Notes under the pieces: generated by a model
Told to the model about the DNA's origin: nothing
What the model saw: only the letters and a program-made list of their open reading frames with translations
Database searches by the model: none
Position numbers and translations under genes: made by a program
Origin: a virus
Length of the DNA: 64,000 bases
Strand: one strand, 5' to 3'
Virus record (IMG/VR): IMGVR_UViG_3300008111_000001
Shown: positions 1-43,501 of the stretch, one piece after another
Position numbering within the stretch: the stretch's first letter is position 1
How the letters are laid out: every line of letters starts with the position of its first letter

Positions 1-3000
1 ACTAATAGCCTGGATAGCATTACGGATAATCCAGCAGAAGCTATTAAAAGATTCTTTTCTTTAACAAGACCAGATGTCATTCCTGATATAGATACTTTAA
101 AGGATGGTCAGGCAGAAGACTTCAAGTCGGACCGGGACAATTATTCAAATAGAATAGAGGCTACCACTAGAGTGTTTACATCTGGTGGGACTCTGTCGTC
201 GCTTGTTGACGACGGTGCATTGTTAATTAACTTATATAAAAGATTAGAATCTACAGGTTTACTGTATTTGGCTTCGTTTGCTTATGAAATAAGTGAGTTC
301 GGCAAGAGGAGGCTGCAAAATGTTTATATGACTCAAAAGTCATTAGACTATCATGTAGATCCAGCAGTAGATACTGAGTGGCTCACTCTTTTAAGTCAGG
401 TTGTTTATAATCTCCAGGCAGATCCTATATCTTTTTCTATTATAAATCATTACCTTCCCGGTTTAATGACATTTGTCTTTGATGCCCTAGCTGTAACTGG
501 AGATTATTCAAACGCAGGAAAAGGCGGTGGAAGCGAAGACACTCTTAATAGAGAAGAAGACGCTGTTGAAGAATTAGAAAAAGCTTTTGGTGTTGCTCCA
601 AATGGTGAACCAATATTCACTATGGCATTTAGGATTAATGGTGGAAATACTTCTGCAAGAATTCGCAAAGCGATAGAAGACTTCCCATATAGAGCAAATA
701 TACCTCCTAAGAAACCTGATATTTTTCATTTACGTTTAGGCGCAGCAAACTTTTATGTACCGCCTATTTCCGTAACAGTCAACTCTGCATTCAAAACTGG
801 ATCTCTTACAGGTGGGGCAATCAGACAAAGAAACACGCCAAAATATAATGCAGGATACAAAGAAACCTCAATTTCATTAAGATTATTTTTTCCAAACTAT
901 GAAGAAATATGGGGCATGCACATAAGCGATGCTTCATCAATAGATCTTAAAGAAGGTTTTAAAATAGATTTTAAGAATTCTGGTGATTCAGAAGAAAAGA
1001 TAGATAAGTTCTTATCTTCTTTGCGTGGACTAATAGCAGCTTTTAAATACTCCCCGATACTGCCAATAAAAAATGATTACATAAACTCTGTTCATGGAAT
1101 CTCGGCGGTTGCACTATCTTCAATGTCTATTTCTACAGTTCCTAATTATCCATTTTCTCTGATGGTTGATCTGGAGCTATTTGCCTATAATCACAAGCCA
1201 TTCTTGCCAATGATTAAAGATTTTAACCAAGCAATTCACTGGGGCAAATACAGACAGTATATGGGCAAGGCTGCCGGCGCAATGCACAAATATGCCAATG
1301 AATCATTTTTGCTGAAAACTTCTGATAATAGAAACTCTGAAGAAACGCAAGATAATACTGGCATCATCCGCGATGGTTCTTATATATATCAAACGAGCCC
1401 TTATGGCGCATCCCTGACAAGTGAATCTGCTTTAGTGGATTCGTCTTTGACAGATGATACCTTGGAATTACTAAACACATATGAGGATGATGTTTTATAT
1501 ACTAATATAATTTCTCAATGGCGAGATGGTAGTAATTTAAGTTTTTACACTCCCGCTGAAACACAAACTAAAATGTTTTTACCTGACACTTCTTCATTTA
1601 GAAGTGAACAGGAAAAAATTCTAAATCAAGAAAGCTATGGGTTGTGGAATGGCTTATTGGCAAAATTTGGGATTGAAATTTCTCCTAATACGCCAGCAAT
1701 TCGTGACTTGGGTCAAATGAAGTCTCTTTCTTTAGAGCCAACATTCCCCCCATCCACAAGGACACTTGTTCGAGAATTCGTAGATATAGTTACCGCTGGC
1801 GTCAGCCAAACGGACTATAGAGATGGAATCTATAAATATAAAATGCAATCGTTTATTTCAAGCAATTTGACTAAACTGACTGCAGAAGAAAAAGAATGGC
1901 TTTTAAATTATTTAACACCAGATGAAATGCCATTTGATGCAGATTATTTTACTCAATATTCAACAGAGGGATCATATATATTAAATGATCCAGTTTTTAA
2001 TAATGAAAACGATAATGTAAGTTTAAACTTTGTTAAAAGAAGTATATGGAATTCAGTTCTTAATTCAGGAAATGTTATAGATACTTTGATTGTCGAAGAG
2101 ACCGAAAGAAGAAAAATTTTAGGTACTGAATCAACGCTTCCCGATGAAGAAAAGATTCGTCAACAAGTAACCGATGCTTTCTTAGTTTCGCTTTACAATC
2201 GCTTTTTTTCTGATGGTTACGTTCAAAATTTAATGAATGCTAAACGTTTGAAAGAAGGAGATTATCACTTCCAGGAGTGGGAAGTTCCGATGAATCGAGT
2301 AGATCTAGATCCTAAGAAAGCTATAGTTAACGGTGTTAGCGTAAGCCTTGGAAATAATCTTGCAAAACTACAAGTACAGATGCAAGAAGAGCCTACTTAT
2401 CAATATATAGGTGGAAAAGATTCGTATATCAATATATCCATGACTGTTTTTGGTGAAAGAGAACTCTATAAGATTAGAGCAATCTTTGACCATATCAATA
2501 GTTTGGCAAGACTAGAGCATTCTACTGGTGTTATTGGTTTCTTAGGAATCAAAAACATTATTAGCGCACTATGTGGAATTAAGTATGTTATCCCACTTAA
2601 CTTTAAAGTTGATACCATACCTAATTATCCACATGTCTATAATGTTCAGTTAAGTTTTGTGGACTTTGATATATTTCAGCAGCAACGAGAAAAGCTATCA
2701 TCAAAGCAGCAACGCGATTTTATTGATCATTTTGGATCAAAGAGAAATCCTTTCCTAAGAATTAAGCAATTGTGGGGAGCATTTAATGCATACCCCGATA
2801 TGCCGCTGGAAGTTCGCGATAAAGAAAATGAAGTAGTTGGCAATTTAGATCCAGATTTCTATTTCAGAAGTTTTGAAATGTTTGATAAAGATGTCATTAA
2901 TAATTTTATCTACCAACCAGATATAACAAAAGATTTTAAATTTGATTATAGTGATGACTGGGCAAAAGTTGGAGACGCTCGTGCTATAGAAATTAGAAAA

Positions 3001-6000
3001 AATCAAGTCAAAAATAGGATCACAGATTTTCTTAGAAGATACGCCTATAGGGATGTAGCAAATGAACCATTTGCTGCAGCACAAAGGGCAACTAATAATA
3101 AAACATTGATTAATGAAATAATAGACTACGTTAACACTAGTGGTATAAGTGTTCATAATTTTATTAGCCTTTTCAAAGAAGTAGTGCAAGCGGAAACTTC
3201 TGAGTTTGAAACTTCGCAAAAGCAAGCTCTATTAACCGATTATATTTTCATTGCTGCTCAATCAACTGAAGATAGTCCAGTATTTGATGAGGTTTCTGGA
3301 GCTGGATATTCTGTCGGGAACATTAATTATTCTGGTGCTGAAACGTTAAATCTAATTAAACAGGTTTTGACAGATTCTCATTTAGCTAATGAGACAGAGG
3401 TTAGTTTTAATCCAGATGAAGTAGATTTCCATAAAGTTATATATATGATTCCGGCAACAAATCCGCAAGAAACTGGATCTGAATCAGAGATACCAGCAAT
3501 GATGCAATCCGCATTAGGTACTCATTTTGGTTATATCAATAAAGATAATGGAAGATTCTACCTAACAGTTGATGGCTCGAATGTTCACATAGATGATAAT
3601 GGGGATAAAAGATTATCAGAAAATCAAATTGAAGATACACAAACTCCAGATAAAGGATGCACAAACACTCTTACTGGAGTTGAAGGTGTTCAATCATTGG
3701 ATAAATATCAAAAAGCATATGATGGCTCTTTTGGCGGTCACATACAAAAAATGATGAACGACGTCCAGTATAGAGACATATCCGGAAGAATGATTAGAGC
3801 ATTTCCTACGTACATGCTGTGGCTCATCGATGAAGGTGGTTTTTTTGCTGGCGTTAAATTGTTTGACAATTTCTACGGATTACAATCCATAGTTGACTTC
3901 TCTGTTGTTTCCTCAGAAGATCTTTTGGGTGATACCCTAATATTTAGGGTGTCCAATATGTATTCAAAGTTGACTACACGTCCTTCAACTGAAATTTTTA
4001 ACTCTAGAGACAATCAGCCAAATGATGCTCCCATAGATTTTACCCAAGGAATTGAGTCTATCTTAGATAGAACTCTAAATATAGCTAAAAATATTGTTTC
4101 TGGTATGAGAAATGACTATGTAGTAGACATAAATAATATTAGATTAAAGCCTGGTGTTCGCGTACATTTGAGAGTTGGTTATGGGGCTAATCCAAACTCT
4201 CTACAAACAGTTTTTAATGGCGTAATAACAAACGTTGAGCAAGGTGAAATTGTAACAGTAACTGCACAGTCTGATGCTATTGAGCTTGGAGCAATAGTTA
4301 ACTCTACAAATAAAAAGGGTGACACGGGTAAGATAGATGGTGGCGTAGATACTGGAATGTATTTGTCGGAGCCTAGAGATCTTATGGTCAGACTGCTTTC
4401 AATGGGGGCATCTAGATTTAGAGAAGCTTTTGCTAGAGCTACAAATGGAACGGTATTTTCTGAAAACAGATTTGGAATTCGTCACTTTGGCTCGACACTA
4501 TATGAGCCTTTAAGCGATTCAGAAAGAGCAAGGGCAGACGGAATTAGAAATGTTGTAGCAAGTGTTTATTCTAATCTTGGTCAAGGAGATGTTGGCGGAG
4601 CTGCCAACGCAGCGTCATTTAAATTGGCAACTAATGTATTCCAAAGAAATCCCGTCAACGCATTTTTTGGGGATGGAAAAATTATGACCAGTATGGGTCA
4701 ATTAATGTCCAACTTCTGCGCAGAAGTTGATTTGGAAATTTTTAAAAGAAATATTTATCCAGGAAACGGAACAGGTTTTGCTCAATTCCTTGGTGGCGAT
4801 ATAGATGACGGATGGTTAACCGCTTCTTCATTAGTGGAAGAAGACGACAAAAAATTAAAAGGACAGGCATACCTTGAAAGAGGCGTGGACAGATCGTGGA
4901 ATAGATTAATAGTAGAGGCTCAAAATGAGTCAGTTTCAGCAAGAACAGCTATTGCAACGATGACTTCCGGTAATCAATTAGTGTCCGCTGAAGGCAGAGC
5001 TAATGCAACAAAGAATGTATTGATGGGCGGATTGGCTGGTTCTATAGGTCTCATCCCTGGAGTGAGTTTTGCTGCTGGTGCAGGTCTTTCTGGTGGCGGA
5101 TTATTTGGCTTATTAAGAGGAAGAGGCGGCACTAACCTTTTCAGAACATTGGGAATTCTTGCACCGAACGCTGATGATGATTTGCCCGGTTTTGATGAAG
5201 TTTCATTTAGGGCTCAAACATACATGAGAACGGTATGGGATCTTTTCCAGGTATGCGCTAGGTTGCTACCTAATTATATTGTTGCTATTAGGCCCTTCGA
5301 GGACAGGTCCACTATATTCTACGGTAAACCTCATTGGCTTTATACTTCTGGTGTCGTACCGGTAACTACTGGATTCCCTAGTACCGAAAGAGGTTCGGAG
5401 TTAGAATTGCCAGGGTATCCAAGGTACCGTTCGCCGGACGAAGATATTGAAAATATTATGAACAATATTAATAGATCAAGTAATACATTAGCTGATTACG
5501 AAGCATTCAAGAGATCCAATGAATTGTCTGACACAATGGCAAGTTTAGCCAGCGATCAACTAAATGCCGAGGGGATATATAAGCCTACAGCATTTTTGAA
5601 AGAAAAGTTAATTAACTTTAATTCACCATTGGCTTCAAGTTTTTCTGAAACACAAGAAGATGGCTCAACCAGAATAGTGGCAAAACTGCCAGCTGTTGTT
5701 GGATTAACTAGAGTCGGATTCCATCTTCCAGTTGGAGACCCAGCTACAACTATAGCTCCAGCAACAGAGTCACACGCTCAGTTGGATAATCTTCCGCCAA
5801 GATTTAGGTACCCATTTTATACTATTAATGAAACTGTCATATTAGACACAACATCTTATACAGTTAGAGATGGCGGAGTTTTTAAAAACGCAGCAAGTCA
5901 TTTTAAGGATATTGGGAAATCTGGAAGAAAGTTTTTAGATAATGAGGGCGAAGTGCCCATGGACGCTGAAGAGTTTGAGGGTTTTGTAAATGAAGCAATG

Positions 6001-9000
6001 GCAGAAGACAGAAGGTCTTTTGGTGGGGCAACATTTATGGCAAATATGTTTACCCTACTTCAGTATGAAAGTAAGTTTATATTAAATAACGATTTAACAT
6101 TAGTACCATCTTCTGGGGTTCTAGAGCTGGACCGTCCATTGGGATTTTCAAGTTTTATAGACAATATAGTGGACGTAGATGGTTTATCTTTTATCGGCGG
6201 CGCAACTTCAAAGTATGTAAGAATGCCCTTGCCCTCAGTCTATGCCAATAGGCCTAGCATATCTCTTGATCAAACAGCTTTGTCGCAGTATTCAGTCACA
6301 TCTTCTGAGGCTAATCGGAATGCAGATGATTATTCGTTTGAGTATGAATTAACAAATCAAATATCATATGAAGAATGGGGTTCGCCTGGAGAATTACCCG
6401 CTTCCCAGCAAACAGCAGCTGAAGCAGAACAATTCTATATTGCTATGAGATGGCCATATAATCCAGGTAATGATGACATTAACGTTTCCGATGAAGCTAT
6501 AGAAAAATTCAAAGAAAAATATGGATTTAGCGATTTATATGGAACAGTTGAAGATTATAAAAAGAGAAAAGTTTTAGTTTATAGTCCTAGAACTGGTAGG
6601 GCCGTTGTTTGTGCTCCAGCATATTTCTTGTGGGGAGAGGAAGATGACGGCACTGCTGCAGTTGTTTCGCCTGACGCCGCATGGTATTTGGGCAATTTTG
6701 TATCTAGGAATTTAAATTTTAAATATATTGCTGATGGAGAAGAAACAAGCATATTGGATCAGCTGCCGTCATGGATTAATACTACAATAAGTGCAGCTAG
6801 TGCAGTTGGTAAGTTTAGCCTTGATGTAATTGCTTATGGTGCAAAGGTTTTGCAATTTACTAGTGCTCCACTTGCTATAGCTAATAAAATAGTCGATAGA
6901 TTAAATATATCTCTGTTTGGTGGTGAAGACGAATTAAACTATGAAGACGAAAGTGGTCTAAGCATAAACCCACTACCAGTAGAATGTCTTTTTGCTTTTG
7001 TTCCAGATGATGTTCCCGTAGGTGTCATATCTTCCGCTGCAGCTCCTGTTAAAAGATTTTATGAAAGAGGAGCTGCATCACTCGACGCTAGTATGATCCT
7101 TGGGTTTGGAAACTATACGATGACAGAAGATGGTCAACTTTCCAAGCTAACAGCAAGACGAGCTACTTCTCAAGACTTAAGAAATGAACTAGGGGGAGGT
7201 ATTAGTTCAAGATTTGTTATTTATGATGATGATATGGTTAATCCTCAAAACGTCTTCTCAGAATGGGTTCCTGTAAATGCGGAGATAGCTTCTAGTAGAT
7301 TTGATTTTGGCGGTAACGCTTTGGCAGTTCCAGATGGACGAGACAAACCATTTATAGGGTACTTCAACGCTCTATTGGATGCTACTAATTTCAATGATAC
7401 TTCAGAAATAGACGGTGCTCTGGGAGGTGCTGCTGCCGATCTAGTTGGGAATGAGCAATTATCTAGAGCATATCTATACAATGTTCTAGATGAAGAGTTG
7501 GCTTCAACTGGTGACGTAGATAGCGCTAAGGGCAGAGCTGCATTTTTAAGTGTGTACGATCCACTGGATTCAGTTGGAGTTGAGGCTAGGTCTTATTATG
7601 ATGAAAATTTTGACCCTAACGTATCAGTTATAGCTGGTGATGGTAGAAATTTGAATGAAGCTAATGACATATGGGATCAATTTAGATTTGGATATCACAC
7701 ATATGATAGCGTTAAAGCTGTATTTGCAAGAATTTACGGAATGGATCCAGATTCAATAGATCCATTCCCCGAAGAGTTTTCTAGAATGTTAGGATCGTCA
7801 ACAGAAAACTCATTTAGTAATTTTGAAGATTCAAATATCCCGATTGCTGGCCTGTCTAACACTGAAAACACGGCTGTAGATGAACTGGCCATTTTGTTGG
7901 GCGCGGACTACTTTAATATACCAAATAATCCACAATTAGGTGGTCAAGGAGTTCCAATAACAAACGCTGCTGAAAGAAGAAACGCAGTAGAGTTTATAAG
8001 AAAAAATTATATAGATTTAATAGCATCAGAAAATGAATCAGACGCAGGAATTATTCAGTACTTTAACTCTACTATTGCAGATTCTCTTAATGGTATTAGG
8101 GAAAACTTTTTTGAGTCCGGAGTTATTAATACAATATTAGAATACGCCTTAGAGAACACTGAAAACCCTGAAGAAGCAATCTCTTTAAACGAAAAAATTA
8201 AAACTCCAAAACAGCTATTCTTATTGATGGTCGGACTTTTTAGGCAGAAACTTTGGAGTACAGCATACGGTAGGGCGTGGCTTGTGTTGAAACCCAATCG
8301 TAAGAGAGGTCTGATAACCAGTGGCGGAGGTGGCTCTGAGGGGCAGTGGTCATTTAAGCCAATTGACAGAGTGTTTGAAGCATTTATTAATCCATATGGC
8401 GAGTATGCTAAGAATGACAACAAGTTTCTTGGACTACTAGTATCAACAAAAGCTGAGGGTACTGGTGCGACAACATTTATTTCTGGAACGCTAGAAGATA
8501 TTGGCAATTTCTATGATAGAAATATCGGACCAATAATGACGGCAATAGGCGATGGTCTTTCTGGTTTATTGGGAATGTTTAAGATGTCGATGATGCAGAT
8601 GGGTTATGCTATTTCTGAAGTTGGCAACTTTAGTAAGCAGGCTCATATATTGAACAAGGTTCTAAATGACTCTATCTACTATTCACTAGGAAGAGAAGGT
8701 ACGCTTCTTAGGGCCGTAGACAATCCGTTTACTCGTGAATATGGTGAGCCGGTTTTGGAAATTAGGCAGCCTTTCCAGAGAATACATTATCTAAGTTCAT
8801 TTTCTCATATTATCTCTAATCAAATTCAAGAGAACTTAAATGGTGTATCTACTGTTGTCACAGCTGTTTCCGATGGAAAGTATCCAATTACAGTAGCCTT
8901 AGATAAGGGTGCTCCAGCAGAGCGTCAAACAGAAAAAACTGTTGAAACAGGTTTGTACTACGATAATTTTGTTGGCTCAGGATTTCTTGGTATTCTGCAT

Positions 9001-10992
9001 CCATTAATGCACCCTATGGAAACTGTAAGAGGTATCGCAAAAAACATCCAAGGAACTCCTGATGAATTGTCGGCAAAAAGAATAGCTTTATCACACCTAA
9101 AGGAATCAATTAAAGATATATATGGTGGAGAGTTAATTATCATAGGTAACGCCGATATTCGTCCCCACGACTTGGTTTACTTGTCAGACATCTATGAAAA
9201 AATGTACGGTATTTTTGAAGTAGAACAAGTCGTCCATCACTTTACCCCAGAGATGGGTTATATTACTTCGATTACACCAAATGCGTTAGTAACAGTTAAT
9301 GATCCAGCAAGATGGTTCCTGACCTCATGGGTTAACTCTTGGTTCACTGTGCAAAATCTTAGAAATGATACACGTTTCTATATGGACAATATAATGGCAT
9401 CGAATACTGGGATTAATTTAGGCGGCAATATATCTGTAGATAGCTTGTCCGACGCCCTAGGACCCCAAATGATTGGTGGCCTACAGTACACTCATGGTTC
9501 TACCGCTTTAGTTAAAGATGTGATGGCAAATCAGACAGCTACAACTCTTCCCAAAAAAGCTGAAGCAGTCATTCAACAGTATGGTTCTTCTGCAAGCAGA
9601 ACAGTTTTCCAAGGAATGACAACAGCTTTAACTGGTGGCGTTGGTGTCGCGGCTGCAGCGGCTGGGGCTGGAGCTACCGGAGCAGCAGGGTTTGGTGTAG
9701 CTTTAGCTGTGCCAATAGTGGGTCAGTTGGCCTGGAAGGGTTGGAAATGGATTAGAGATAATGTTCTAGATCAGCACGGCTGTTATGTCCAATATCTAAA
9801 TAAAAATGGTCAACCAATGGATGCTGGACTGTCTTACAATCAAGGCATGGTAGTCGGCAAGCATCATTCTAAGGTATTGCTGCCAGGATTACTTGGAGCA
9901 AGAACTAAGGTTAGAACTCCAGAGGGAAATATTTTTGTTAGAAGCGATGATCTATTGAAGAGCTTGGGCTGGCAAGAGAAACAGATAACAGATTTAGTTA
10001 GATATATAGATTATGAAAATGCCCTAGTTCATGCAAGAGTTTTGCAGTTGAGTGGTCTAGGCCCAGATAGAACAGATCTTCAGCCATCACTATTTAGTGT
10101 TATTGCTAAAGTCACAAAGTTTAAAGACGGTGACACATTCGATGTAGAAGATGTTATTTCTGGAGCAACATTTACTGTAAGATTTGATGGCATAAACACT
10201 GGTGAAACAAACACGTTTACCGTTACATCAAACGATGGCGATCTAGGTGTCAGCTATAGTGATTCATCAACACCATCAACTAAAATGACTGCAATAAATA
10301 CTCCTGGAGGTAAAGCTAAAATATTTGTTCAGTCTAAATTAGAAAACAGATTAGTTGTTTTGAGAATAAGAATTAACAACGCTGCATCTAGCTCTGTTAT
10401 TTCTGAGTCCGATTTTGAAGCCGGCGCTGAACAGAATACTTTAGCAAACTACACTAAAGACGTTACCGATTCAAAGAGAACTCTTGGAACAGTATGGTAC
10501 TATCAGCCAGAATCAGTAGTTCAGGCAGCAAAAGATTTTGTAGAAACATGCTTTATAGGAAATCAAGCTGGTGCTGGCGCTGAGCAAAAAATTAAAGAAG
10601 CATTCTTCAATTCTATATACCAAGATTCTCCATTGTTTATAAAGAAAGATTCTATACTTAATGCAATATCCGTATTAGGGTTGGTGTATACTTCTCCATT
10701 ATCCATTTTGGTTGATACAGCAACTAGGTATGGATTGTCTGAGAGTCAAACAATTAAGCTATATAATGATTTAGTCCAATATAAAGTGTTGGAAGCTACC
10801 TATAATAAAACTAGAGAATGGCCTACTATATTCTGGGACGAGTACTATGAAAATGGATATCCCGTTACTTTGAATTGGGAGCTCGTTACAAATAATCTGG
10901 CTACGGTGTACGCTAAGCAGCTTCAGATTGAAGGCGATGCTGTAATTAGCGCCGAGGAATCAGCTTTAATACCAACAAGAGTTGGACAATAA
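1..10992 (+). CDS. Giant virion protein (>3660 aa, 5' truncated): baseplate hub/central-spike-like, with a DPBB-like insert and a C-terminal thermonuclease (SNase)-like domain
   Basis: Frame 1 is open from base 1 (TNSLDSITDNPAEAIKRFF...) into the tracked GTG at 172, so the true start is upstream of the window. Hub-like motifs: VRVHLRVGYGANPNSLQTVFNGVITNV and ELIIIGNADIRPHDLVYL...FEVEQVVHHFTPEMGYITSITP. SNase-like motif KDGDTFDV...VRFDGINTGE. Lies directly upstream of lysin, gp25 and baseplate J genes. Confidence 0.75.
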   Translation, partial: TNSLDSITDNPAEAIKRFFSLTRPDVIPDIDTLKDGQAEDFKSDRDNYSNRIEATTRVFTSGGTLSSLVDDGALLINLYKRLESTGLLYLASFAYEISEFGKRRLQNVYMTQKSLDYHVDPAVDTEWLTLLSQVVYNLQADPISFSIINHYLPGLMTFVFDALAVTGDYSNAGKGGGSEDTLNREEDAVEELEKAFGVAPNGEPIFTMAFRINGGNTSARIRKAIEDFPYRANIPPKKPDIFHLRLGAANFYVPPISVTVNSAFKTGSLTGGAIRQRNTPKYNAGYKETSISLRLFFPNYEEIWGMHISDASSIDLKEGFKIDFKNSGDSEEKIDKFLSSLRGLIAAFKYSPILPIKNDYINSVHGISAVALSSMSISTVPNYPFSLMVDLELFAYNHKPFLPMIKDFNQAIHWGKYRQYMGKAAGAMHKYANESFLLKTSDNRNSEETQDNTGIIRDGSYIYQTSPYGASLTSESALVDSSLTDDTLELLNTYEDDVLYTNIISQWRDGSNLSFYTPAETQTKMFLPDTSSFRSEQEKILNQESYGLWNGLLAKFGIEISPNTPAIRDLGQMKSLSLEPTFPPSTRTLVREFVDIVTAGVSQTDYRDGIYKYKMQSFISSNLTKLTAEEKEWLLNYLTPDEMPFDADYFTQYSTEGSYILNDPVFNNENDNVSLNFVKRSIWNSVLNSGNVIDTLIVEETERRKILGTESTLPDEEKIRQQVTDAFLVSLYNRFFSDGYVQNLMNAKRLKEGDYHFQEWEVPMNRVDLDPKKAIVNGVSVSLGNNLAKLQVQMQEEPTYQYIGGKDSYINISMTVFGERELYKIRAIFDHINSLARLEHSTGVIGFLGIKNIISALCGIKYVIPLNFKVDTIPNYPHVYNVQLSFVDFDIFQQQREKLSSKQQRDFIDHFGSKRNPFLRIKQLWGAFNAYPDMPLEVRDKENEVVGNLDPDFYFRSFEMFDKDVINNFIYQPDITKDFKFDYSDDWAKVGDARAIEIRKNQVKNRITDFLRRYAYRDVANEPFAAAQRATNNKTLINEIIDYVNTSGISVHNFISLFKEVVQAETSEFETSQKQALLTDYIFIAAQSTEDSPVFDEVSGAGYSVGNINYSGAETLNLIKQVLTDSHLANETEVSFNPDEVDFHKVIYMIPATNPQETGSESEIPAMMQSALGTHFGYINKDNGRFYLTVDGSNVHIDDNGDKRLSENQIEDTQTPDKGCTNTLTGVEGVQSLDKYQKAYDGSFGGHIQKMMNDVQYRDISGRMIRAFPTYMLWLIDEGGFFAGVKLFDNFYGLQSIVDFSVVSSEDLLGDTLIFRVSNMYSKLTTRPSTEIFNSRDNQPNDAPIDFTQGIESILDRTLNIAKNIVSGMRNDYVVDINNIRLKPGVRVHLRVGYGANPNSLQTVFNGVITNVEQGEIVTVTAQSDAIELGAIVNSTNKKGDTGKIDGGVDTGMYLSEPRDLMVRLLSMGASRFREAFARATNGTVFSENRFGIRHFGSTLYEPLSDSERARADGIRNVVASVYSNLGQGDVGGAANAASFKLATNVFQRNPVNAFFGDGKIMTSMGQLMSNFCAEVDLEIFKRNIYPGNGTGFAQFLGGDIDDGWLTASSLVEEDDKKLKGQAYLERGVDRSWNRLIVEAQNESVSARTAIATMTSGNQLVSAEGRANATKNVLMGGLAGSIGLIPGVSFAAGAGLSGGGLFGLLRGRGGTNLFRTLGILAPNADDDLPGFDEVSFRAQTYMRTVWDLFQVCARLLPNYIVAIRPFEDRSTIFYGKPHWLYTSGVVPVTTGFPSTERGSELELPGYPRYRSPDEDIENIMNNINRSSNTLADYEAFKRSNELSDTMASLASDQLNAEGIYKPTAFLKEKLINFNSPLASSFSETQEDGSTRIVAKLPAVVGLTRVGFHLPVGDPATTIAPATESHAQLDNLPPRFRYPFYTINETVILDTTSYTVRDGGVFKNAASHFKDIGKSGRKFLDNEGEVPMDAEEFEGFVNEAMAEDRRSFGGATFMANMFTLLQYESKFILNNDLTLVPSSGVLELDRPLGFSSFIDNIVDVDGLSFIGGATSKYVRMPLPSVYANRPSISLDQTALSQYSVTSSEANRNADDYSFEYELTNQISYEEWGSPGELPASQQTAAEAEQFYIAMRWPYNPGNDDINVSDEAIEKFKEKYGFSDLYGTVEDYKKRKVLVYSPRTGRAVVCAPAYFLWGEEDDGTAAVVSPDAAWYLGNFVSRNLNFKYIADGEETSILDQLPSWINTTISAASAVGKFSLDVIAYGAKVLQFTSAPLAIANKIVDRLNISLFGGEDELNYEDESGLSINPLPVECLFAFVPDDVPVGVISSAAAPVKRFYERGAASLDASMILGFGNYTMTEDGQLSKLTARRATSQDLRNELGGGISSRFVIYDDDMVNPQNVFSEWVPVNAEIASSRFDFGGNALAVPDGRDKPFIGYFNALLDATNFNDTSEIDGALGGAAADLVGNEQLSRAYLYNVLDEELASTGDVDSAKGRAAFLSVYDPLDSVGVEARSYYDENFDPNVSVIAGDGRNLNEANDIWDQFRFGYHTYDSVKAVFARIYGMDPDSIDPFPEEFSRMLGSSTENSFSNFEDSNIPIAGLSNTENTAVDELAILLGADYFNIPNNPQLGGQGVPITNAAERRNAVEFIRKNYIDLIASENESDAGIIQYFNSTIADSLNGIRENFFESGVINTILEYALENTENPEEAISLNEKIKTPKQLFLLMVGLFRQKLWSTAYGRAWLVLKPNRKRGLITSGGGGSEGQWSFKPIDRVFEAFINPYGEYAKNDNKFLGLLVSTKAEGTGATTFISGTLEDIGNFYDRNIGPIMTAIGDGLSGLLGMFKMSMMQMGYAISEVGNFSKQAHILNKVLNDSIYYSLGREGTLLRAVDNPFTREYGEPVLEIRQPFQRIHYLSSFSHIISNQIQENLNGVSTVVTAVSDGKYPITVALDKGAPAERQTEKTVETGLYYDNFVGSGFLGILHPLMHPMETVRGIAKNIQGTPDELSAKRIALSHLKESIKDIYGGELIIIGNADIRPHDLVYLSDIYEKMYGIFEVEQVVHHFTPEMGYITSITPNALVTVNDPARWFLTSWVNSWFTVQNLRNDTRFYMDNIMASNTGINLGGNISVDSLSDALGPQMIGGLQYTHGSTALVKDVMANQTATTLPKKAEAVIQQYGSSASRTVFQGMTTALTGGVGVAAAAAGAGATGAAGFGVALAVPIVGQLAWKGWKWIRDNVLDQHGCYVQYLNKNGQPMDAGLSYNQGMVVGKHHSKVLLPGLLGARTKVRTPEGNIFVRSDDLLKSLGWQEKQITDLVRYIDYENALVHARVLQLSGLGPDRTDLQPSLFSVIAKVTKFKDGDTFDVEDVISGATFTVRFDGINTGETNTFTVTSNDGDLGVSYSDSSTPSTKMTAINTPGGKAKIFVQSKLENRLVVLRIRINNAASSSVISESDFEAGAEQNTLANYTKDVTDSKRTLGTVWYYQPESVVQAAKDFVETCFIGNQAGAGAEQKIKEAFFNSIYQDSPLFIKKDSILNAISVLGLVYTSPLSILVDTATRYGLSESQTIKLYNDLVQYKVLEATYNKTREWPTIFWDEYYENGYPVTLNWELVTNNLATVYAKQLQIEGDAVISAEESALIPTRVGQ

Positions 10993-11002
10993 GGGGTTTA
11001 TT

Positions 11003-13318
11003 GTGTCATTCAATATAAATACTCAATCACTTTCCGATAGCGCATCTTTTGCCAAAACCATACATGGAGATTTTTATCCAGGAGGAAAATCTCCTGTTCT
11101 AAATACTAGTGCCTCCTTATCTCCACCGGCTACAGGGAGAACATTAAGCTCTTTTGATGTTACGGGTGTTATGGCCGGAGATCTTTTGAACAGGAGTAAA
11201 AAATATCCCATAGCAGCGATGAATGCAAGTATATCTGGATCTTTAAATGGTTTAATTACTGGTGGAGCTGCAGCAGCATCAGCTACGACTCCAGAAAATG
11301 CGACAATTACAATTGCTAATCCTGAGGCAACAGATTTTAGTGTAGACGGCGAGGGAAACCCAACTGGGGCAAATAATGCCACATTAACCGGAGCTGCTGC
11401 TTGGAATAAGATTTTATCAAAAAGTATGGCCGGCAAAAATATTGGCAACACCTTTGTTGAAAACTCTTTGCAGATTATAAGAAATACAATGATTTCTTCT
11501 TCTGAAAATAAAGATCCTTCAGATAATAATAGAGGCTCTGGTGGCTCAAGTTCACCAGGCATAGGAGAGATGCAAAGCGCAGGACGCAGAGACGTTGCTT
11601 TGATAGCGGAAATGACAGAAGAGGAAAAAGGTTGGTATCAAGAAAGATTAACGCTATTAAGAACAAAATACCAATCGCAAATAAGTGACCATAGTTCAAT
11701 TGGTGGATTTAGATTTGATATTCCCAATGAATGGGCAGCTGATCCAAGAGAGGTATATAATGGATCTTCAACCTTCTTTCCTGATTCTAAGGTGGATAAT
11801 AGTCAAAGAGTTTTGAGCGACGAACTGATACTTCAAAACCCTACGCTAGGTATAGCGAACGCTTTTTTATCCGCAGCTCTGATAGAACTATTAATACTCT
11901 TGCATGAGAAAAACTACTATATAGCCGGTGGTTTTGGTGCAGGAAGAGATCCAAATCAAGAAAAGTACATTAAGCCAGATAAATTTACTCCTGGAGACCA
12001 TACTTTTGGTAGAGCCATAGACATACGGGAAGTTGGAAGGGTAAATGAAGAATCTTTTAATGTTGAAACAACCAATGGTACCCCAAATCACGTTCCCGTT
12101 TACGGTTCTGCTTTAGACATTTTAATAGAGGCATTGTCTGAAGTGCCCCAGTATTTGATACCAGACTCAGTTGTGGTCAGCGATAAACTTGATCTTGGTA
12201 TTGTAGACGGCTTAGAGCCGGTTACCGCTGCAATCAAATTGAATCGACCGTATTTACAGTATCTAAATTTTCATGCGGACTCCGGCCACAGGGATCATAT
12301 ACACTTAAGTTTTAGCGGAATGAGAGCGGGCAAATATGTTGGTCCAGGAGGAGCTATGACTGTTTCTGGAACAAATGTTTCTGGTGGCAGTGTTACTACG
12401 CGTCCGTCTAATTTGTCTGGCAGCGCAGACAGTCTTGAAAGGCAAATTGAAAGAAGATTATATAATCGGTCAACAGAAGGCTTATTAGATCAAAACTATT
12501 ATGGTCAATGGGACTTTAGCTTGGGTTTAGATGGCGTTTATGATGTTTTAACTCAGACTTGGTGTTCCCCTGAAGTAGCAGCTTGTCTGGCTGCAGTTGC
12601 AGTTAGGGAAAGTAATTGTAGGCCCACCGGTTTTTATATTGGAAATACAGATTTTATTTCTTTAGGATTTTTACAAATTAATATGGGCGCCGGCGGATTT
12701 GGATACTCTGGTGGCAACCCAGTATATAGACGAGGCGCAGGATTGGCTCACGGAACAAAAACGTATGAGTTAACTGATGCAAGTGGAAAAACACAAATAC
12801 AAGGATGGTTAATTGCTTCAGCTAATTGGGATTCGGTTTATCCAGGGGAAACAAGACCAACTCAAGATACTTATAATAAGATTATAAATGATAAATATCA
12901 TCTTTCTTTATTCTATAATGGTGGGGTTAAGGATAAGGTAATGGAAGAGATGAGACCATTGGTTGATAGAAGATTATGGATACCCAGAAATCAGGCATGG
13001 CTTGCCTATACCGCACGGACCAGTAGGCTACCAACGTTTGGAGAACCAAAGCTTGATGGATATCAGTTTCAGGTTTGGGGGGATGGATACAAGGCTTATG
13101 GTTGGATGAATGGTGGAGTTAAATTTCAGGATGCAGCAGACGTCTATACTGACAGAACAGGTAAAACAGTAGAGGATTTAAAGAAATGGATAAGAAATGT
13201 ATACTCCAATGATCCATCTGTATTCCTAGATGAGGTAGCAAACTATTCTGCTAAATATATAGAAAGATGGATGAGCGGAGAAGTATTCCCAAGAGAGTAT
13301 GCAAATGGAGATAGCTAG
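11003..13318 (+). CDS. Tail-associated lysin: M15-type (LAS) Zn peptidase plus lysozyme-like/lytic transglycosylase domain
   Basis: GDHTFGRAIDI...HRDHIHLSF matches the H-x6-D and H-x-H zinc ligands. AAVAVRESNC...LGFLQIN matches the E-S and GxxQ transglycosylase motifs. GTG at 11003 follows AAGGGG; the track start is TTG 10982. Confidence 0.75.
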   Translation: MSFNINTQSLSDSASFAKTIHGDFYPGGKSPVLNTSASLSPPATGRTLSSFDVTGVMAGDLLNRSKKYPIAAMNASISGSLNGLITGGAAAASATTPENATITIANPEATDFSVDGEGNPTGANNATLTGAAAWNKILSKSMAGKNIGNTFVENSLQIIRNTMISSSENKDPSDNNRGSGGSSSPGIGEMQSAGRRDVALIAEMTEEEKGWYQERLTLLRTKYQSQISDHSSIGGFRFDIPNEWAADPREVYNGSSTFFPDSKVDNSQRVLSDELILQNPTLGIANAFLSAALIELLILLHEKNYYIAGGFGAGRDPNQEKYIKPDKFTPGDHTFGRAIDIREVGRVNEESFNVETTNGTPNHVPVYGSALDILIEALSEVPQYLIPDSVVVSDKLDLGIVDGLEPVTAAIKLNRPYLQYLNFHADSGHRDHIHLSFSGMRAGKYVGPGGAMTVSGTNVSGGSVTTRPSNLSGSADSLERQIERRLYNRSTEGLLDQNYYGQWDFSLGLDGVYDVLTQTWCSPEVAACLAAVAVRESNCRPTGFYIGNTDFISLGFLQINMGAGGFGYSGGNPVYRRGAGLAHGTKTYELTDASGKTQIQGWLIASANWDSVYPGETRPTQDTYNKIINDKYHLSLFYNGGVKDKVMEEMRPLVDRRLWIPRNQAWLAYTARTSRLPTFGEPKLDGYQFQVWGDGYKAYGWMNGGVKFQDAADVYTDRTGKTVEDLKKWIRNVYSNDPSVFLDEVANYSAKYIERWMSGEVFPREYANGDS

Positions 13319-13326
13319 GAGAAAAA

Positions 13327-13698
13327 ATGCCAGTTAATTACCCTAAGTTTGATAAAAAGATACAAGATCAAATAGATGTTACAGAAATGCAAAAGGCAAG
13401 GACTAGGCCTGGCGTTATAGCGTCTTATGACAAACGTCAAAACACCGCAGTTGTAATACTTGAGGATCAATATTCTCAAAATATAGGTAATATTATAAAG
13501 AATGTAGTTTGTCCAGTCACAAATGGTGTGCAGGCTGTAGCTCCGACCCCAGGGAGTAGATGTTTAGTAGGATTTCGCGACAATAATGAGGCAAAGCCAT
13601 ATATTATAAACTTTTACAATGACGCTGGAAATACAGGAAATTACAGGTATTACAATACAGTTAATACCGGAGTGCCGAATTTTATGGTTTGCTCATGA
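13327..13698 (+). CDS. Baseplate spike/gpV-like N-terminal OB-fold protein
   Basis: PGVIASYD...AVVIL...NVVCP...AVAPTPGSRCLVGFRDNNEAKPYII resembles the gp5/gpV OB-fold; baseplate context; SD AGGAG. Confidence 0.55.
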   Translation: MPVNYPKFDKKIQDQIDVTEMQKARTRPGVIASYDKRQNTAVVILEDQYSQNIGNIIKNVVCPVTNGVQAVAPTPGSRCLVGFRDNNEAKPYIINFYNDAGNTGNYRYYNTVNTGVPNFMVCS

Positions 13699-14339
13699 GT
13701 AAAGAGTCGATACAAAGAGATAATTATCAGCAACCAACCATACCCATAGGTGCTGAAATTAGGAAAAGAAAAGAGTTCTCAGAAAGAGAAGTAGGACTAA
13801 CGCATCCTGATTTGTCTAGTTTTATTAGGTTAAATGATCGTGGAGACATAGAGATATTTGCTGCTCCAGGAGTTGGCATTGTGATAAGCGCAAAGTCTAA
13901 GTCAATTTCTTTATTTGGCGATTCCGTAAGGCTGTTTACTAAAGAAGATGGATTAAGGTGGAATAGCTATAATTTTAATTACTGCGCCTCTTCCTATATA
14001 GAGCCAACTTTAGTTAAAATTAACCATAAAAACATTCACTCGGCAACCAACGGAGTCGCTTATTATTTAAATAATGCTGAACAGTATGCAGATCAAGAAA
14101 CGCAAACTCCTATTACTATAGTAGGTGAGTTTGGTTTTGCTAAAAAACAAGAGCAAATTCAACAATCGTATGAATCAGAATATGATTTAGCTGGATTGAC
14201 CGATGAACAAATAGGGTTACTTGAGATATATCAGACCGATCACTCTAAAGAGCATATATTATTGATGATTCAGTTAATGAAAGATGGAAATAGTTTTGAG
14301 CAAGCACATAATCTTGCGCTAAAGGAAACAAATGAGTGA
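13695..14339 (+). CDS. Baseplate-associated structural protein (possible spike beta-strand part)
   Basis: ATGA overlap with the upstream gene; SFIRLNDRGDIEIFA resembles spike beta-helix segments; position between the OB-fold gene and gp25. Confidence 0.4.
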   Translation: MSKESIQRDNYQQPTIPIGAEIRKRKEFSEREVGLTHPDLSSFIRLNDRGDIEIFAAPGVGIVISAKSKSISLFGDSVRLFTKEDGLRWNSYNFNYCASSYIEPTLVKINHKNIHSATNGVAYYLNNAEQYADQETQTPITIVGEFGFAKKQEQIQQSYESEYDLAGLTDEQIGLLEIYQTDHSKEHILLMIQLMKDGNSFEQAHNLALKETNE

Positions 14340-14712
14340 TTTGTATTTAACATTAAATGGGGACATTATGCTTGACGGCAATAAGGATATTGCACTAGCC
14401 CCATCCTCTATGCACGAAGATGTCCAGCAAATCTATTTGAGAATAATGACTGAGCCTGGAGATTTTTATATTTATCCTCAATTAGGGGTAGATTTATCCA
14501 GGCTTTACGGTCTACCTCAAACTAAAGAAACAGCTGAATTTGGTAAAGCTTTAATAATGGCCGGCATTCAAAAAGAAGGTCTTTTTAAGGGTAGGGGCAT
14601 TCAAATTAAAGCAGTACCAACAAGCAGAGATGTAATTAGATTTGATATTCATATTATTTCGGATATTAATGAGCCAATAATTCTTTCTGTTAGTCAAACC
14701 CTAGGAGCATAA
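14332..14712 (+). CDS. gp25-like baseplate wedge/sheath initiator
   Basis: 126 aa; QQIYLRIMTEPGDFYIYPQLGVDL matches the gp25/GPW motif (R-L-x-T-x-x-G-x5-P-x-x-G); immediately before baseplate J. Confidence 0.8.
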   Translation: MSDLYLTLNGDIMLDGNKDIALAPSSMHEDVQQIYLRIMTEPGDFYIYPQLGVDLSRLYGLPQTKETAEFGKALIMAGIQKEGLFKGRGIQIKAVPTSRDVIRFDIHIISDINEPIILSVSQTLGA

Positions 14713-14713
14713 A

Positions 14714-15883
14714 ATGCCAATTTATGGAATAAAAAATAAAGCTGATATACTAGTCAATGTCTTGAATGGCTTGCAGAAAAATGCAGGCGTATCAGCCGTC
14801 TATCCTGGGTCTATAGCTAGAGCATTTGCAGAAGCTTTTACCAGTGAAGTATCAGATCTTTATGAGGCTTTAAGATTTAACCTAACCCAAGGTGACCTCA
14901 TGACAGCATCAGGCAGGAATCTTGATTTGATAGGCGACCTATATGGAATAACCAGAAGAAACATTAGCGATTATTCTAGTCAAGATCGCGAATCCTTCAA
15001 TATTCAATTCCTTATAGACAAGCCACATAGCTCGGACGTAACAATACCATCCGGAACATTGGTTTACAATGATGTGTCAAATTTTATTACAAAGCAATAT
15101 ACATATAAACTAGCTGGAGATGTAATTATTGGCAAAGGATCAACTAGAGCTTATGGAAGAGTTGATCCAAACTTTACAGATAATGCGTATGTTGCTCCTG
15201 TCGGCACACTAACTAAGCATAACGCTTTTGCTCCAGCTGGGGTAATAGTGTTTTGCTCAAATCCCAAAGAGGTTTACTCTAACACCAGTGCAGAGTCAGA
15301 TACTAATTTCCGAAGAAGAATCATAGCTTCGATAAAAGCAAAAGCTCCGGGCACAGCTGAATCTATCAGATTTGCTGCGTTAGCAGTTAGAGGTGTTAGG
15401 GACGTTAGAATTAGAGAAGGCACATACGGGGTAGGGTCATGCGATGTTATCGTCGTGCCAGAAACTGCTACCGACATGTCAAATCTGCCTCAAAGAGTTA
15501 TGATCGCAGTTAGTGCAGCTAAGCCAATTGGCGTAAGATTTAATGTTAGAATAGCAGAACGAGTTAGTATGAACGTAGAAGCTACTATTACGCTACCGAT
15601 GGGCTTGAGTGAAAATCTTGCTAGTGGCATAAGAAATCAGGCCTCACTGTTTGTGAAAAGATACCTAAATTCATTAACAGTTGGAGATACTGTTTCTATT
15701 TCGGAAATTGAAAGACAAATTAAATTATCATCAGATTATATTCGATCATGTTACATAAGTTCCATGTTAGCAGATGGTTCCAGTCTTCCACTTGTAGATT
15801 TTTCACTAGATACAGTTAAAAGATACCCCGTAGCAGGCGCAATAAACATTAGTTCTGTTATAATGGGTGGAACAAATTATTAA
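14714..15883 (+). CDS. Baseplate J-like wedge protein
   Basis: ASGRNLDLIGDLYGITRR and ESDTNFRRRI...GTAESIRFAALAVRGVRDV...GVGSCDVIV are baseplate J hallmarks. Confidence 0.85.
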   Translation: MPIYGIKNKADILVNVLNGLQKNAGVSAVYPGSIARAFAEAFTSEVSDLYEALRFNLTQGDLMTASGRNLDLIGDLYGITRRNISDYSSQDRESFNIQFLIDKPHSSDVTIPSGTLVYNDVSNFITKQYTYKLAGDVIIGKGSTRAYGRVDPNFTDNAYVAPVGTLTKHNAFAPAGVIVFCSNPKEVYSNTSAESDTNFRRRIIASIKAKAPGTAESIRFAALAVRGVRDVRIREGTYGVGSCDVIVVPETATDMSNLPQRVMIAVSAAKPIGVRFNVRIAERVSMNVEATITLPMGLSENLASGIRNQASLFVKRYLNSLTVGDTVSISEIERQIKLSSDYIRSCYISSMLADGSSLPLVDFSLDTVKRYPVAGAINISSVIMGGTNY

Positions 15884-43102: not shown

Positions 43103-43501
43103 ATGTCGGATAAATTAAATCCATGGATATACAATGCAGAGGTAAAAAAAGTTGTTGATGGTGACACTTTTGATATTATTATTGACCTTGGTTTTGACGT
43201 GCTCAAAAAGGGTAGAGTTCGCTTATATGGCGTTAATACTCCGGAAAGCAGAACGTCTAACGTTGAAGAAAAGAAGATGGGATTAGCTGCAAAAGAGTTC
43301 ACGGACCAATGGTTAACCGCCGCCAATCACAAAGTTAAAATTGAAACTATTATTGATAAGAACGAAAAGTACGGAAGAGTTCTGGCAAGAGTGTGGAATG
43401 AGGCTGAAGAGTGTCTAAATGATGCTATAATAGCGTCTGGTCTTGCTAGAGCATACTTTGGCGTAGGCGATAAAACATTCACTGAATTCAAAAAGGACTA
43501 A
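43103..43501 (+). CDS. Thermonuclease (SNase-like)
   Basis: KKVVDGDTFD...VRLYGVNTPE...EKYGRVLA...NDAIIASGLA. Confidence 0.88.
   Translation: MSDKLNPWIYNAEVKKVVDGDTFDIIIDLGFDVLKKGRVRLYGVNTPESRTSNVEEKKMGLAAKEFTDQWLTAANHKVKIETIIDKNEKYGRVLARVWNEAEECLNDAIIASGLARAYFGVGDKTFTEFKKD

What the first reader, a model, noticed from the sequence alone, without database searches (positions are those of the whole stretch)
9631..10510. Glycine zipper followed by a thermonuclease domain at the hub C-terminus: evolved-VgrG-like architecture in a phage
A hydrophobic Gly/Ala zipper (TGGVGVAAAAAGAGATGAAGFGVALAVPIVGQLAWKGWKW, 9631-9753) precedes an SNase-like domain (10096-10510). That domain keeps DGDT, the R of VRF, E43-like GE and a second R (KRTL), but has N in place of D40. 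A second zipper lies at about 5017-5130. A membrane-inserting hairpin plus a C-terminal nuclease on a spike is the layout of T6SS evolved-VgrG effectors. The domain could be delivered into the host, or could clear extracellular DNA at the tail tip.
Basis: partly seen in the sequence, partly recalled or inferred. Interest (0 to 1): 0.7.

Follow-up and report, generated by a model that had tools for sequence, protein, structure and literature searches.

The report
Nuclease-type domain ending a phage tail hub
The last ~300 residues of a 3,704-residue tail-tip (baseplate hub) protein of an uncultured ~194-kb phage are a real but divergent staphylococcal-nuclease-type domain; nuclease domains on this hub family were already noted in 2007, and what they do at the tail tip is still untested.

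Summary
Observation confirmed. The Gly/Ala hydrophobic stretch, a second one near 5017, and the SNase motifs are all present. It runs from 10081 to 10923 and is split by a ~105-aa helical insert.

An AlphaFold model matches staphylococcal nuclease and Tudor-SN (Z 10.6-10.7). Pfam's SNase model does not detect the domain.

Among 167 homologues, 129 keep D21, R35, E43 and R87. In the other 38 these residues are lost together, in at least 5-7 separate lineages. This pattern fits an active enzyme with some dead offshoots. Asn at the D40 position is normal here, because the phage's own Pfam-positive stand-alone SNase (43103-43501) has it too.

The "evolved VgrG" reading holds only as an analogy:
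- The hydrophobic stretch and the invariant block after it are ancestral to the whole 0305phi8-36-type hub family, including members without SNase.
- After that block, Bacillus phage 0305phi8-36 carries NlpC/P60 and M23 domains where this phage carries SNase.
- A separate gpV-like spike gene lies downstream.

An SNase domain on a hub of this lineage was reported by Hardies et al. in 2007. Acinetobacter phage ME3's hub has an internal one. This scan has also followed the same C-terminal module up on other genomes. Verdict: a new variant of a known kind, with function untested.

The parts
1..10992 (+). Giant baseplate-hub gene. The start codon lies 123 nt upstream of the window, giving about 3,704 aa.
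   Evidence: The frame is open and the start is at L002:18070. It matches PHROG 20474 at 5.9e-122 and phrog_8809. tblastn hits are collinear with 0305phi8-36 ORF147 'baseplate hub', KLEB27-3, WH1, MTATph1 and ME3.
5017..5115 (+).
   Evidence: It is a 33-aa run free of charged and strongly polar residues, with best KD 1.68. A run of 20 aa or more occurs upstream of the FYGKPHW anchor in 109 of 173 homologues.
9034..9372 (+). Hub block X (aa 3012-3124), shared with hubs of cultured phages.
   Evidence: tblastn gives 29-38% identity to the hubs of 0305phi8-36, ME3, KLEB27-3, WH1, Edson and MTATph1. phrog_8809 matches aa 3031-3098.
9613..9723 (+). C-terminal Gly/Ala hydrophobic segment (aa 3205-3241).
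   Evidence: It is a 37-aa run free of charged and strongly polar residues, 59% G+A, with KD 1.59. A run of 20 aa or more is present in 104 of 119 close and 15 of 36 distant homologues. Hydrophobic counterparts occur in the hub tails of cultured phages.
9724..10080 (+). Block Y (aa 3242-3360), the most conserved part of the C-terminus (WKGWKW.RDNVLDQHGCYVQYLNKNGQPMDAGLSYNQGMVVG...).
   Evidence: Its columns are invariant or nearly so. The core motif aligns with the hub tails of cultured phages (hhalign E 1.1e-4, probability 56%). AlphaFold confidence is low.
10081..10500 (+). SNase-type domain, OB-barrel part (aa 3361-3500), carrying DGDT, VRFDGINTGE and KRTLGTVWY.
   Evidence: Foldseek places SNase first (E 3e-4). 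VIA gives Z 10.6-10.7 to 1sta and 3bdl. NCBIfam calcium-activated nuclease EcnA matches at E 4.2e-5. hhalign against the phage's own SNase gives E 5.6e-5 to 7e-5.
10501..10818 (+). Helical insert inside the SNase domain (aa 3501-3606).
   Evidence: The model shows helices at model residues 303-404 with high pLDDT. The segment is absent from the 2,300-3,250-aa relatives.
10819..10923 (+). C-terminal part of the SNase domain (aa 3607-3641: EWP..WDEYY..G.P.TLNWELV..NLA).
   Evidence: The structural alignments span model residues 163-438. The motif is conserved in all clades.
13327..13698 (+). Candidate gpV-like spike gene (123 aa), separate from the hub.
   Evidence: BLASTP against 0305phi8-36 gp148 'P2 gpV-like' gives E 6e-6 over 28 aa. 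Gene order matches 0305phi8-36. This is weak evidence.
14332..15883 (+). Baseplate wedge genes: a gp25/W-like ORF of 126 aa and a Baseplate_J ORF of 389 aa.
   Evidence: phrog_120 and phrog_25235 match the first and phrog_6 matches the second at 1.6e-37. Pfam Baseplate_J matches at 7.8e-11.
43103..43501 (+). Stand-alone SNase paralogue (132 aa), also with Asn at the D40 position (GVNTPE).
   Evidence: PF00565 scores 54 bits. Orthologues occur in all five related phage records checked.

Best explanation
The giant gene encodes the baseplate hub of a contractile-tailed phage of the 0305phi8-36 type, a gp27/gpD-like hub with exchangeable enzyme domains. Its C-terminus has three parts:
1. A Gly/Ala hydrophobic segment.
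2. An almost invariant ~120-aa block.
3. A staphylococcal-nuclease-type domain split by a helical insert.

The first two parts are ancestral hub features. The third fills the same C-terminal cargo slot that holds cell-wall hydrolases in Bacillus phage 0305phi8-36.

Inferred: the domain is a working Ca2+-dependent phosphodiesterase carried on the virion. It is deployed at the tail tip during adsorption or penetration. It acts outside the cytoplasm, on extracellular or envelope-associated nucleic acid, in the way the wall hydrolases in that slot act on the wall.

Shown here: fold, homology, residue conservation and position in the hub. Inferred only: catalysis, Ca2+ dependence, presence in the virion and site of action.
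For: Hub identity:
- PHROG 20474 matches at 5.9e-122.
- tblastn hits are collinear with annotated hub proteins.
- Baseplate W and J genes lie downstream.
- gp147 was assigned as a gp27 homologue by Hardies et al. 2007 (PMC2147016).

SNase fold:
- Model residues 161-440 are confident.
- Foldseek's top hits are all SNase, with E 3e-4 and TM about 0.5 on the target.
- VIA-align gives 3bdl Z 10.7 and 1sta Z 10.6, with rmsd 3.2, 107 aligned residues and 25% identity.

Sequence links:
- NCBIfam calcium-activated nuclease matches at E 4.2e-5.
- hhalign against the phage's own Pfam-positive SNase gives E 5.6e-5 to 7e-5.
- Insert-free relatives show canonical DGDT / VRLxG[IV]xTPEL / DxYGRxLAxVFH motifs. 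One of them scores a weak Pfam SNase hit.

Catalysis:
- 129 of 167 homologues keep D21, R35, E43 and R87.
- The other 38 lose them jointly (for example DDRISK, DGKIPK), in at least 5-7 independent changes.
- Asn at the D40 position is also used by the stand-alone SNases of this phage and of four of the five related records checked; the fifth match is cut off at the contig end.

Cargo slot:
- After the shared block, 0305phi8-36 gp147 carries NlpC/P60 and M23.
- MTATph1 has a weak VanY/M15 match there.
- KLEB27-3 and WH1 have nothing recognisable there by Pfam.
Against: - Pfam's SNase model does not detect the domain, either in the protein or in the six-frame search. The NCBIfam hit is far below its cut-off.
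- About a quarter of the homologues have lost the catalytic set yet keep the domain. The fold therefore also has a non-catalytic role, and that could be its main role.
- Nothing shows that the C-terminus is exposed at the tail tip rather than buried, or that the protein is in the virion at all.
- A nuclease next to the exit path of the phage's own DNA needs some form of control, and none is evident.
Confidence: 0.5

Rival explanations
1. Injected effector, the reader's evolved-VgrG reading. On contraction, the hydrophobic segments insert into the inner membrane. The SNase domain is carried into the cytoplasm, where it degrades host DNA or RNA.
For: - Two conserved hydrophobic Gly/Ala segments are each long enough for a membrane hairpin.
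- The catalytic set is intact.
- Earlier unchecked notes from this scan say the neighbouring 1,689-aa gene may be an ejected virion RNA polymerase. That would imply protein translocation through this tail.
Against: - The hydrophobic segment and block Y also occur in hubs whose C-terminal cargo is a wall hydrolase or nothing. They are therefore not tied to delivering the nuclease.
- SNase chemistry needs millimolar Ca2+ (own knowledge), which the cytoplasm lacks.
- The domain is covalently attached to a 3,400-aa structural protein.
- No immunity or inhibitor gene was seen next to it.
Confidence: 0.15
2. Non-catalytic OB-fold module. The SNase-like domain serves as a structural or binding element. 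It could dock to another baseplate or tape-measure protein, or bind a polyanionic surface polymer. This would resemble the inactive SN-like halves of extended Tudor domains.
For: - 38 of 167 homologues keep the domain without its catalytic residues.
- The best structural matches include the non-catalytic SN-like parts of Tudor-SN and eTudor domains, which are also split by an inserted domain.
- The domain is too divergent for Pfam.
Against: - Three quarters of the homologues, including the very divergent 2,300-3,250-aa clade, keep D19, D21, R35, E43 and R87 exactly.
- Joint loss of the residues is what follows the loss of a real activity.
Confidence: 0.27
3. Chance resemblance: the motifs are fortuitous and the segment is not related to SNase.
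For: The domain has no Pfam hit and no PDB hit by sequence.
Against: - Two independent aligners find the same fold match.
- Profile-level sequence links exist.
- Motifs become canonical in insert-free relatives.
Confidence: 0.03

Closest known systems
Hub proteins of the Bacillus phage 0305phi8-36 lineage: gp147 and its BtI1/BwK1 prophage-like homologues (Hardies, Thomas and Serwer 2007, PMC2147016)
   Same: - It belongs to the same hub family.
- It follows the same principle: a conserved assembly core decorated with exchangeable enzyme domains.
- The paper reports an SNase-related domain on the BtI1 hub, calls its purpose not obvious, and proposes transfer from a stand-alone phage SNase gene. 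This phage also has such a stand-alone gene.
   Different: - In BtI1 the SNase is N-terminal. Here it is C-terminal, behind the hydrophobic segment and block Y, in the slot where gp147 has NlpC/P60 and M23.
- Here it is split by a ~105-aa helical insert and lies below Pfam's threshold.
- The protein is twice as long.
- One homologue is labelled Flavobacterium sp.; the host is otherwise unknown.
Acinetobacter phage vB_AbaM_ME3 gp037 (2,329-aa hub, annotated 'peptidase')
   Same: It is a hub of the same family, from a cultured phage with a Gram-negative host. It carries an SNase domain (PF00565, 4.7e-14) next to an M23 peptidase. It shares block X and the hydrophobic-plus-block-Y motif.
   Different: - ME3's SNase is internal (aa 1126-1241), upstream of block X, compact and canonical (GLDTPE).
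- ME3's C-terminal tail has no SNase.
- The nuclease is not mentioned in the genome paper.
Staphylococcal nuclease / thermonuclease (PF00565; PDB 1sta, 1stn)
   Same: It has the same fold. It has counterparts of D19, D21, R35, T41, E43 and R87.
   Different: - Asn replaces D40.
- It has a loop insertion after the E43 motif and a helical domain inserted before the last helices.
- It is fused to a structural protein.
- It does not reach Pfam's cut-off.
T6SS evolved VgrG and phage tail-associated lysins (Tal)
   Same: Both are tail-tip or hub scaffolds with an enzyme domain appended at the C-terminus.
   Different: - Pfam detects no gp5-like needle in this chain, and a candidate spike is a separate gene.
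- The context is phage baseplate genes, not a T6SS.
- The cargo is fixed within the clade.
- The cargo is a nuclease-type domain, not a wall hydrolase as in Tal.

Membership tests
SNase / thermonuclease superfamily | Five-stranded OB barrel plus helices, the SNase fold | tested here: met
   The AlphaFold model is confident over residues 161-440. Foldseek's top 50 hits are all SNase (E 3e-4). VIA gives 1sta Z 10.6 and 3bdl Z 10.7.
SNase / thermonuclease superfamily | Score above Pfam PF00565's gathering cut-off (21 bits) | tested here: not met
   Neither the protein nor its C-terminus gives a hit. The six-frame search finds only the stand-alone ORF. The distant relative P0150 scores 14.2 bits. 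Weaker links are NCBIfam EcnA at E 4.2e-5 and hhalign at E 5.6e-5.
SNase / thermonuclease superfamily | Catalytic and Ca2+-binding residues D21, R35, D40, T41, E43, R87 | tested here: met
   All are present except D40, which is Asn. The same Asn occurs in the phage's Pfam-positive stand-alone SNase. 129 of 167 homologues keep D21, R35, E43 and R87.
SNase / thermonuclease superfamily | Ca2+-dependent cleavage of DNA and RNA | not testable with these tools
   This needs the purified domain.
gp27/gpD-type baseplate hub (0305phi8-36 gp147 family) | Sequence homology to gp147-family hubs along the chain | tested here: met
   PHROG 20474 matches at 5.9e-122 in 5 stretches. Two collinear tblastn segments match 0305phi8-36, KLEB27-3, WH1, Edson, MTATph1 and ME3.
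gp27/gpD-type baseplate hub (0305phi8-36 gp147 family) | Gene position: after the tape-measure region, before the gpV-, gpW- and gpJ-like genes | tested here: met
   Giant genes lie upstream. Downstream are a gpV-like candidate, a gp25-like gene and Baseplate_J. The order is the same as in 0305phi8-36.
gp27/gpD-type baseplate hub (0305phi8-36 gp147 family) | gp27-like fold of the core domains | tested here: inconclusive
   The model of aa 2880-3210 failed, with mean pLDDT 35. The assignment of gp147 to gp27 rests on PMC2147016.
T6SS evolved VgrG | gp5-like OB domain and beta-helix needle in the same chain, upstream of the effector domain | tested here: inconclusive
   Pfam finds no domain in the protein, and the region before the zipper could not be modelled. 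A separate gpV-like candidate gene exists.
T6SS evolved VgrG | C-terminal effector differs between otherwise close homologues | tested here: not met
   All 167 homologues with the DQHGC block carry the SNase domain. Variation appears only between very distant hub lineages.
T6SS evolved VgrG | Encoded in a T6SS locus | tested here: not met
   The context is a phage tail and baseplate module in a 194-kb virus record.

The most novel reading that the evidence does not exclude
The hub-borne SNase domain is an active nuclease that the phage uses as a tail-tip tool. It either cuts through extracellular DNA in the aggregates and biofilms where its host lives, or is carried through the envelope to attack host nucleic acid. 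That would make it the first demonstrated nuclease effector on a phage tail tip. The lineages that lost the catalytic set together would serve as natural controls.
Probability: 0.3. Interest if true: 0.65.

Novelty: new variant of a known kind. Interest (0 to 1): 0.4.

Why it matters
Enzymes on phage tail tips are known almost only as cell-wall or capsule degraders. A nuclease in that position has been on record since 2007 without a function. Here it is fixed in a very large family of uncultured phages with contigs of about 200 kb.

The joint-loss pattern of the catalytic residues gives the first comparative argument that the activity is real and selected. It also offers natural intact and dead pairs for experiments.

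The hydrophobic segment and block Y turn out to be ancestral to the hub family. This removes an attractive but wrong "delivery hairpin" reading and defines a C-terminal cargo slot in these hubs.

Tried and rejected
- PDB sequence searches found nothing relevant. This holds for the C-terminus, for the profile A1 and for the whole protein.
- Pfam on the whole protein and on sub-segments found nothing.
- An AlphaFold model of the conserved region before the zipper (aa 2880-3210) failed with mean pLDDT 35, so the hub fold could not be checked by structure.
- The zipper and block Y also modelled poorly within the C-terminal model.
- A three-copy complex job on the zipper plus block Y gave no verdict. 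It says nothing either way.
- The ESM Atlas gave no usable hit for block Y.
- I considered block Y as a cysteine peptidase or L,D-transpeptidase-like site because of its invariant DQHGC. I rejected this for two reasons. The His and Cys are not kept in the matching motif of cultured relatives. No profile supports it.
- ME3's C-terminal tail is unrelated to this SNase module.
- Literature searches for thermonuclease or SNase together with baseplate hub found no paper. A search for EcnA found only unrelated papers.
Full report
**What is in the sequence**

Frame 1 of the + strand is open from base 1 to 10992. The window lies in a 193,906-bp IMG/VR virus record estimated 92% complete. The gene starts 123 nt upstream of the window, so the protein has about 3,704 aa. 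Residue numbers below count from the first codon inside the window.

The longest runs free of charged and strongly polar residues are aa 3205-3241 (9613-9723; 37 aa, 59% Gly+Ala) and aa 1673-1705 (5017-5115; 33 aa). No other such run reaches 22 aa. Chance expectation is about 0.0005 and 0.003 runs. Kyte-Doolittle means are 1.59 and 1.68, which is borderline for a membrane helix. I therefore call these hydrophobic Gly/Ala segments rather than proven transmembrane hairpins.

**The protein is a baseplate hub**

PHROG 20474 matches at 5.9e-122 in five stretches, and phrog_8809 matches aa 3031-3098. tblastn against cultured phages gives two collinear segments, at aa ~1200-1780 and ~3012-3124. They hit one gene each in Bacillus phages 0305phi8-36 (ORF147, 'baseplate hub protein'), KLEB27-3, WH1 and Edson, and in Moorella phage MTATph1. 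Acinetobacter phage ME3 is hit by the second segment only.

In 0305phi8-36 that gene follows the tape measure and precedes a P2 gpV-like gene and a gpJ-like gene. In this window the hub is followed by:
- a 778-aa ORF of no known family;
- a 123-aa ORF with a short match to the 0305phi8-36 gpV-like protein (E 6e-6 for the pair);
- a gp25-like ORF;
- a Baseplate_J ORF.

Hardies, Thomas and Serwer assigned gp147 to the T4 gp27 / P2 gpD hub family by HMM comparison. They called it a 'hyperplastic' hub whose conserved core carries exchangeable N- and C-terminal domains (PMC2147016). I could not confirm the hub fold by structure, because a model of aa 2880-3210 came out at mean pLDDT 35.

I built an AlphaFold model of window 9604-10989 using 40 homologous C-termini. 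It is confident only for model residues 161-440. Foldseek against the PDB returns staphylococcal nuclease as every top hit (E 3e-4, probability 1.00, TM about 0.5 on the target).

An independent all-against-representatives search gives the following:
- human Tudor-SN 3bdl at Z 10.7;
- staphylococcal nuclease 1sta at Z 10.6 (rmsd 3.2, 107 aligned residues, 25% identity), spanning model residues 163 to 438;
- SN-like extended Tudor domains at Z 8.6-9.6.

So the fold runs from aa 3361 to 3641 (10081-10923). A helical subdomain (aa ~3501-3606) is inserted before the last SNase helices.

A search of 1.8 billion representatives found a more distant set of hubs of 2,300-3,250 aa with the same C-terminal module but without the insert. 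Their motifs are close to textbook: DGDT, VRLxG[IV][N/D/A]TPEL, DxYGRxLAxVFH and NWELVxxGLA.

Sequence-level support is real but sub-threshold:
- NCBIfam 'calcium-activated nuclease EcnA' matches aa 3368-3454 at E 4.2e-5.
- hhalign of the family profile against the phage's own SNase gives E 5.6e-5 to 7e-5.
- One distant hub scores 14.2 bits on Pfam SNase, against a cut-off of 21.
- Pfam does not detect the domain in this protein.

**Are the catalytic residues under selection?**

I aligned 167 homologues that carry the module and read the columns that match SNase D19, D21, R35, D40, E43 and R87.
- 120 show D-D-R-[N/D]-E-R.
- 129 keep D21, R35, E43 and R87.
- The other 38 have lost several of these at once, for example D-D-R-I-S-K, D-G-K-I-P-K and S-D-K-F-Y-K.

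On a tree built without these columns, the degenerate state needs 7 changes, and at least 5 are forced by well-supported branches. Joint decay in some lineages, with strict retention elsewhere, is the usual signature of a real activity that is sometimes given up. Because the domain stays in those lineages, it also has a structural role.

The Asn at the D40 position is not a defect. The same phage encodes a stand-alone, Pfam-positive SNase of 132 aa (window 43103-43501, 54 bits) that reads GVNTPE. All five related phage records checked carry a stand-alone SNase match, and the four with a complete ORF read G[VI]NTPE.

**The zipper is not a delivery device for the nuclease**

The most conserved part of the C-terminus is neither the zipper nor the SNase domain. 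It is the ~120-aa block between them. I read the hub tails of five cultured relatives downstream of the shared block X. Each has a hydrophobic segment followed by a short motif of the form ...PL.K.G.PF.AGI.G..G.VVGD. A profile comparison with this family's block gives E 1.1e-4 at probability 56%. That is modest on its own, but the motif sits at the equivalent position in every case.

What follows the motif differs between phages:

| Phage | After the motif |
|---|---|
| 0305phi8-36 | NlpC/P60 plus M23 |
| MTATph1 | weak VanY/M15-type match |
| KLEB27-3, WH1 | nothing recognisable by Pfam |
| ME3 | nothing recognisable by Pfam; unrelated to this module by hhalign |
| This clade | SNase |

The hydrophobic segment and block Y are therefore ancestral hub parts. 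The SNase sits in a variable C-terminal cargo slot.

ME3's hub does carry SNase, a canonical one (PF00565, 4.7e-14), but internally at aa 1126-1241, next to an M23 domain. Hardies et al. reported an N-terminal SNase-related domain on the BtI1 hub. They wrote that its purpose is not obvious and suggested transfer from stand-alone phage genes. SNase domains therefore occur at three different positions in this hub family.

**How it most likely works**

Shown: a hub homologue with an SNase-fold domain in the slot used elsewhere for wall hydrolases, and catalytic residues conserved in three quarters of the family.

Inferred, at about 0.5: the domain is an active Ca2+-dependent phosphodiesterase on the virion. 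It acts outside the cytoplasm, at the tail tip or in the envelope. The supports are its positional equivalence with wall hydrolases and the Ca2+ requirement of SNase chemistry (own knowledge).

Rivals:
- A purely structural or binding OB fold (0.27). This is supported by the 38 degenerate homologues and by the likeness to inactive SN-like Tudor scaffolds.
- An injected cytoplasmic toxin (0.15).
- Chance resemblance (0.03).

The evolved-VgrG comparison holds only as an analogy, in that a tail-tip scaffold bears a C-terminal enzyme.
- Pfam finds no needle domain in this chain.
- A candidate spike is a separate gene.
- The cargo is fixed within the clade.
- The context is a phage baseplate.
- The hydrophobic segment is unrelated to the cargo.

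**Novelty**

Earlier notes from this scan show that the same C-terminal module was already followed up on other genomes, with the same 2007 reference. I checked that paper myself.

- the joint-loss analysis of the catalytic residues;
- the finding that the zipper and block Y are ancestral to the hub family;
- the conserved stand-alone paralogue with the same Asn.

I rate this a new variant of a known kind.

Noticed in passing
window 43103-43501 (+), with 42224-43102 and 43503-43922: A stand-alone SNase gene (132 aa, PF00565 at 54 bits) sits between a C5 DNA methyltransferase and a pyrimidine-dimer glycosylase. A stand-alone SNase match occurs in all five related phage records checked; the four complete ORFs read G[VI]NTPE.
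   Followed up: partly
L065 (Acinetobacter phage vB_AbaM_ME3, NC_041884.1) gp037, aa 1126-1241: The deposited hub protein, annotated 'peptidase', contains a full Pfam SNase domain (4.7e-14) just before its M23 domain. The genome paper does not mention it.
   Followed up: partly
window 9724-10080 (aa 3242-3360): Block Y is almost invariant across hundreds of homologues (W..W..RD...DQHGC.Y..YL.KNGQPMD..L..NQGM.VG). AlphaFold models it at pLDDT 34-47, and it matches no family. Its role is unexplained.
   Followed up: partly
L040, L054, L055 (positions 1885-2877): In three related loci the frame upstream of the C-terminal module contains stop codons. The hub there may be split, frameshifted or recoded.
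   Followed up: no
P0123 (544 aa), P0128 (533 aa), P0131 (635 aa), P0137 and P0141: Short database proteins consist of little more than the zipper, block Y and SNase module. They may be contig-edge fragments or separately encoded versions.
   Followed up: no
window 10982-13318 (+): A 778-aa ORF overlaps the hub stop codon by 11 nt and has no Pfam or PHROG match. Cultured relatives have a lytic-transglycosylase-like or amidase gene at this position.
   Followed up: no
window 5017-5330 (aa 1673-1777): The internal hydrophobic segment is followed about 70 aa later by FYGKPHW, a motif found in all 173 long homologues checked. This arrangement parallels the C-terminal zipper followed by block Y.
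   Followed up: partly
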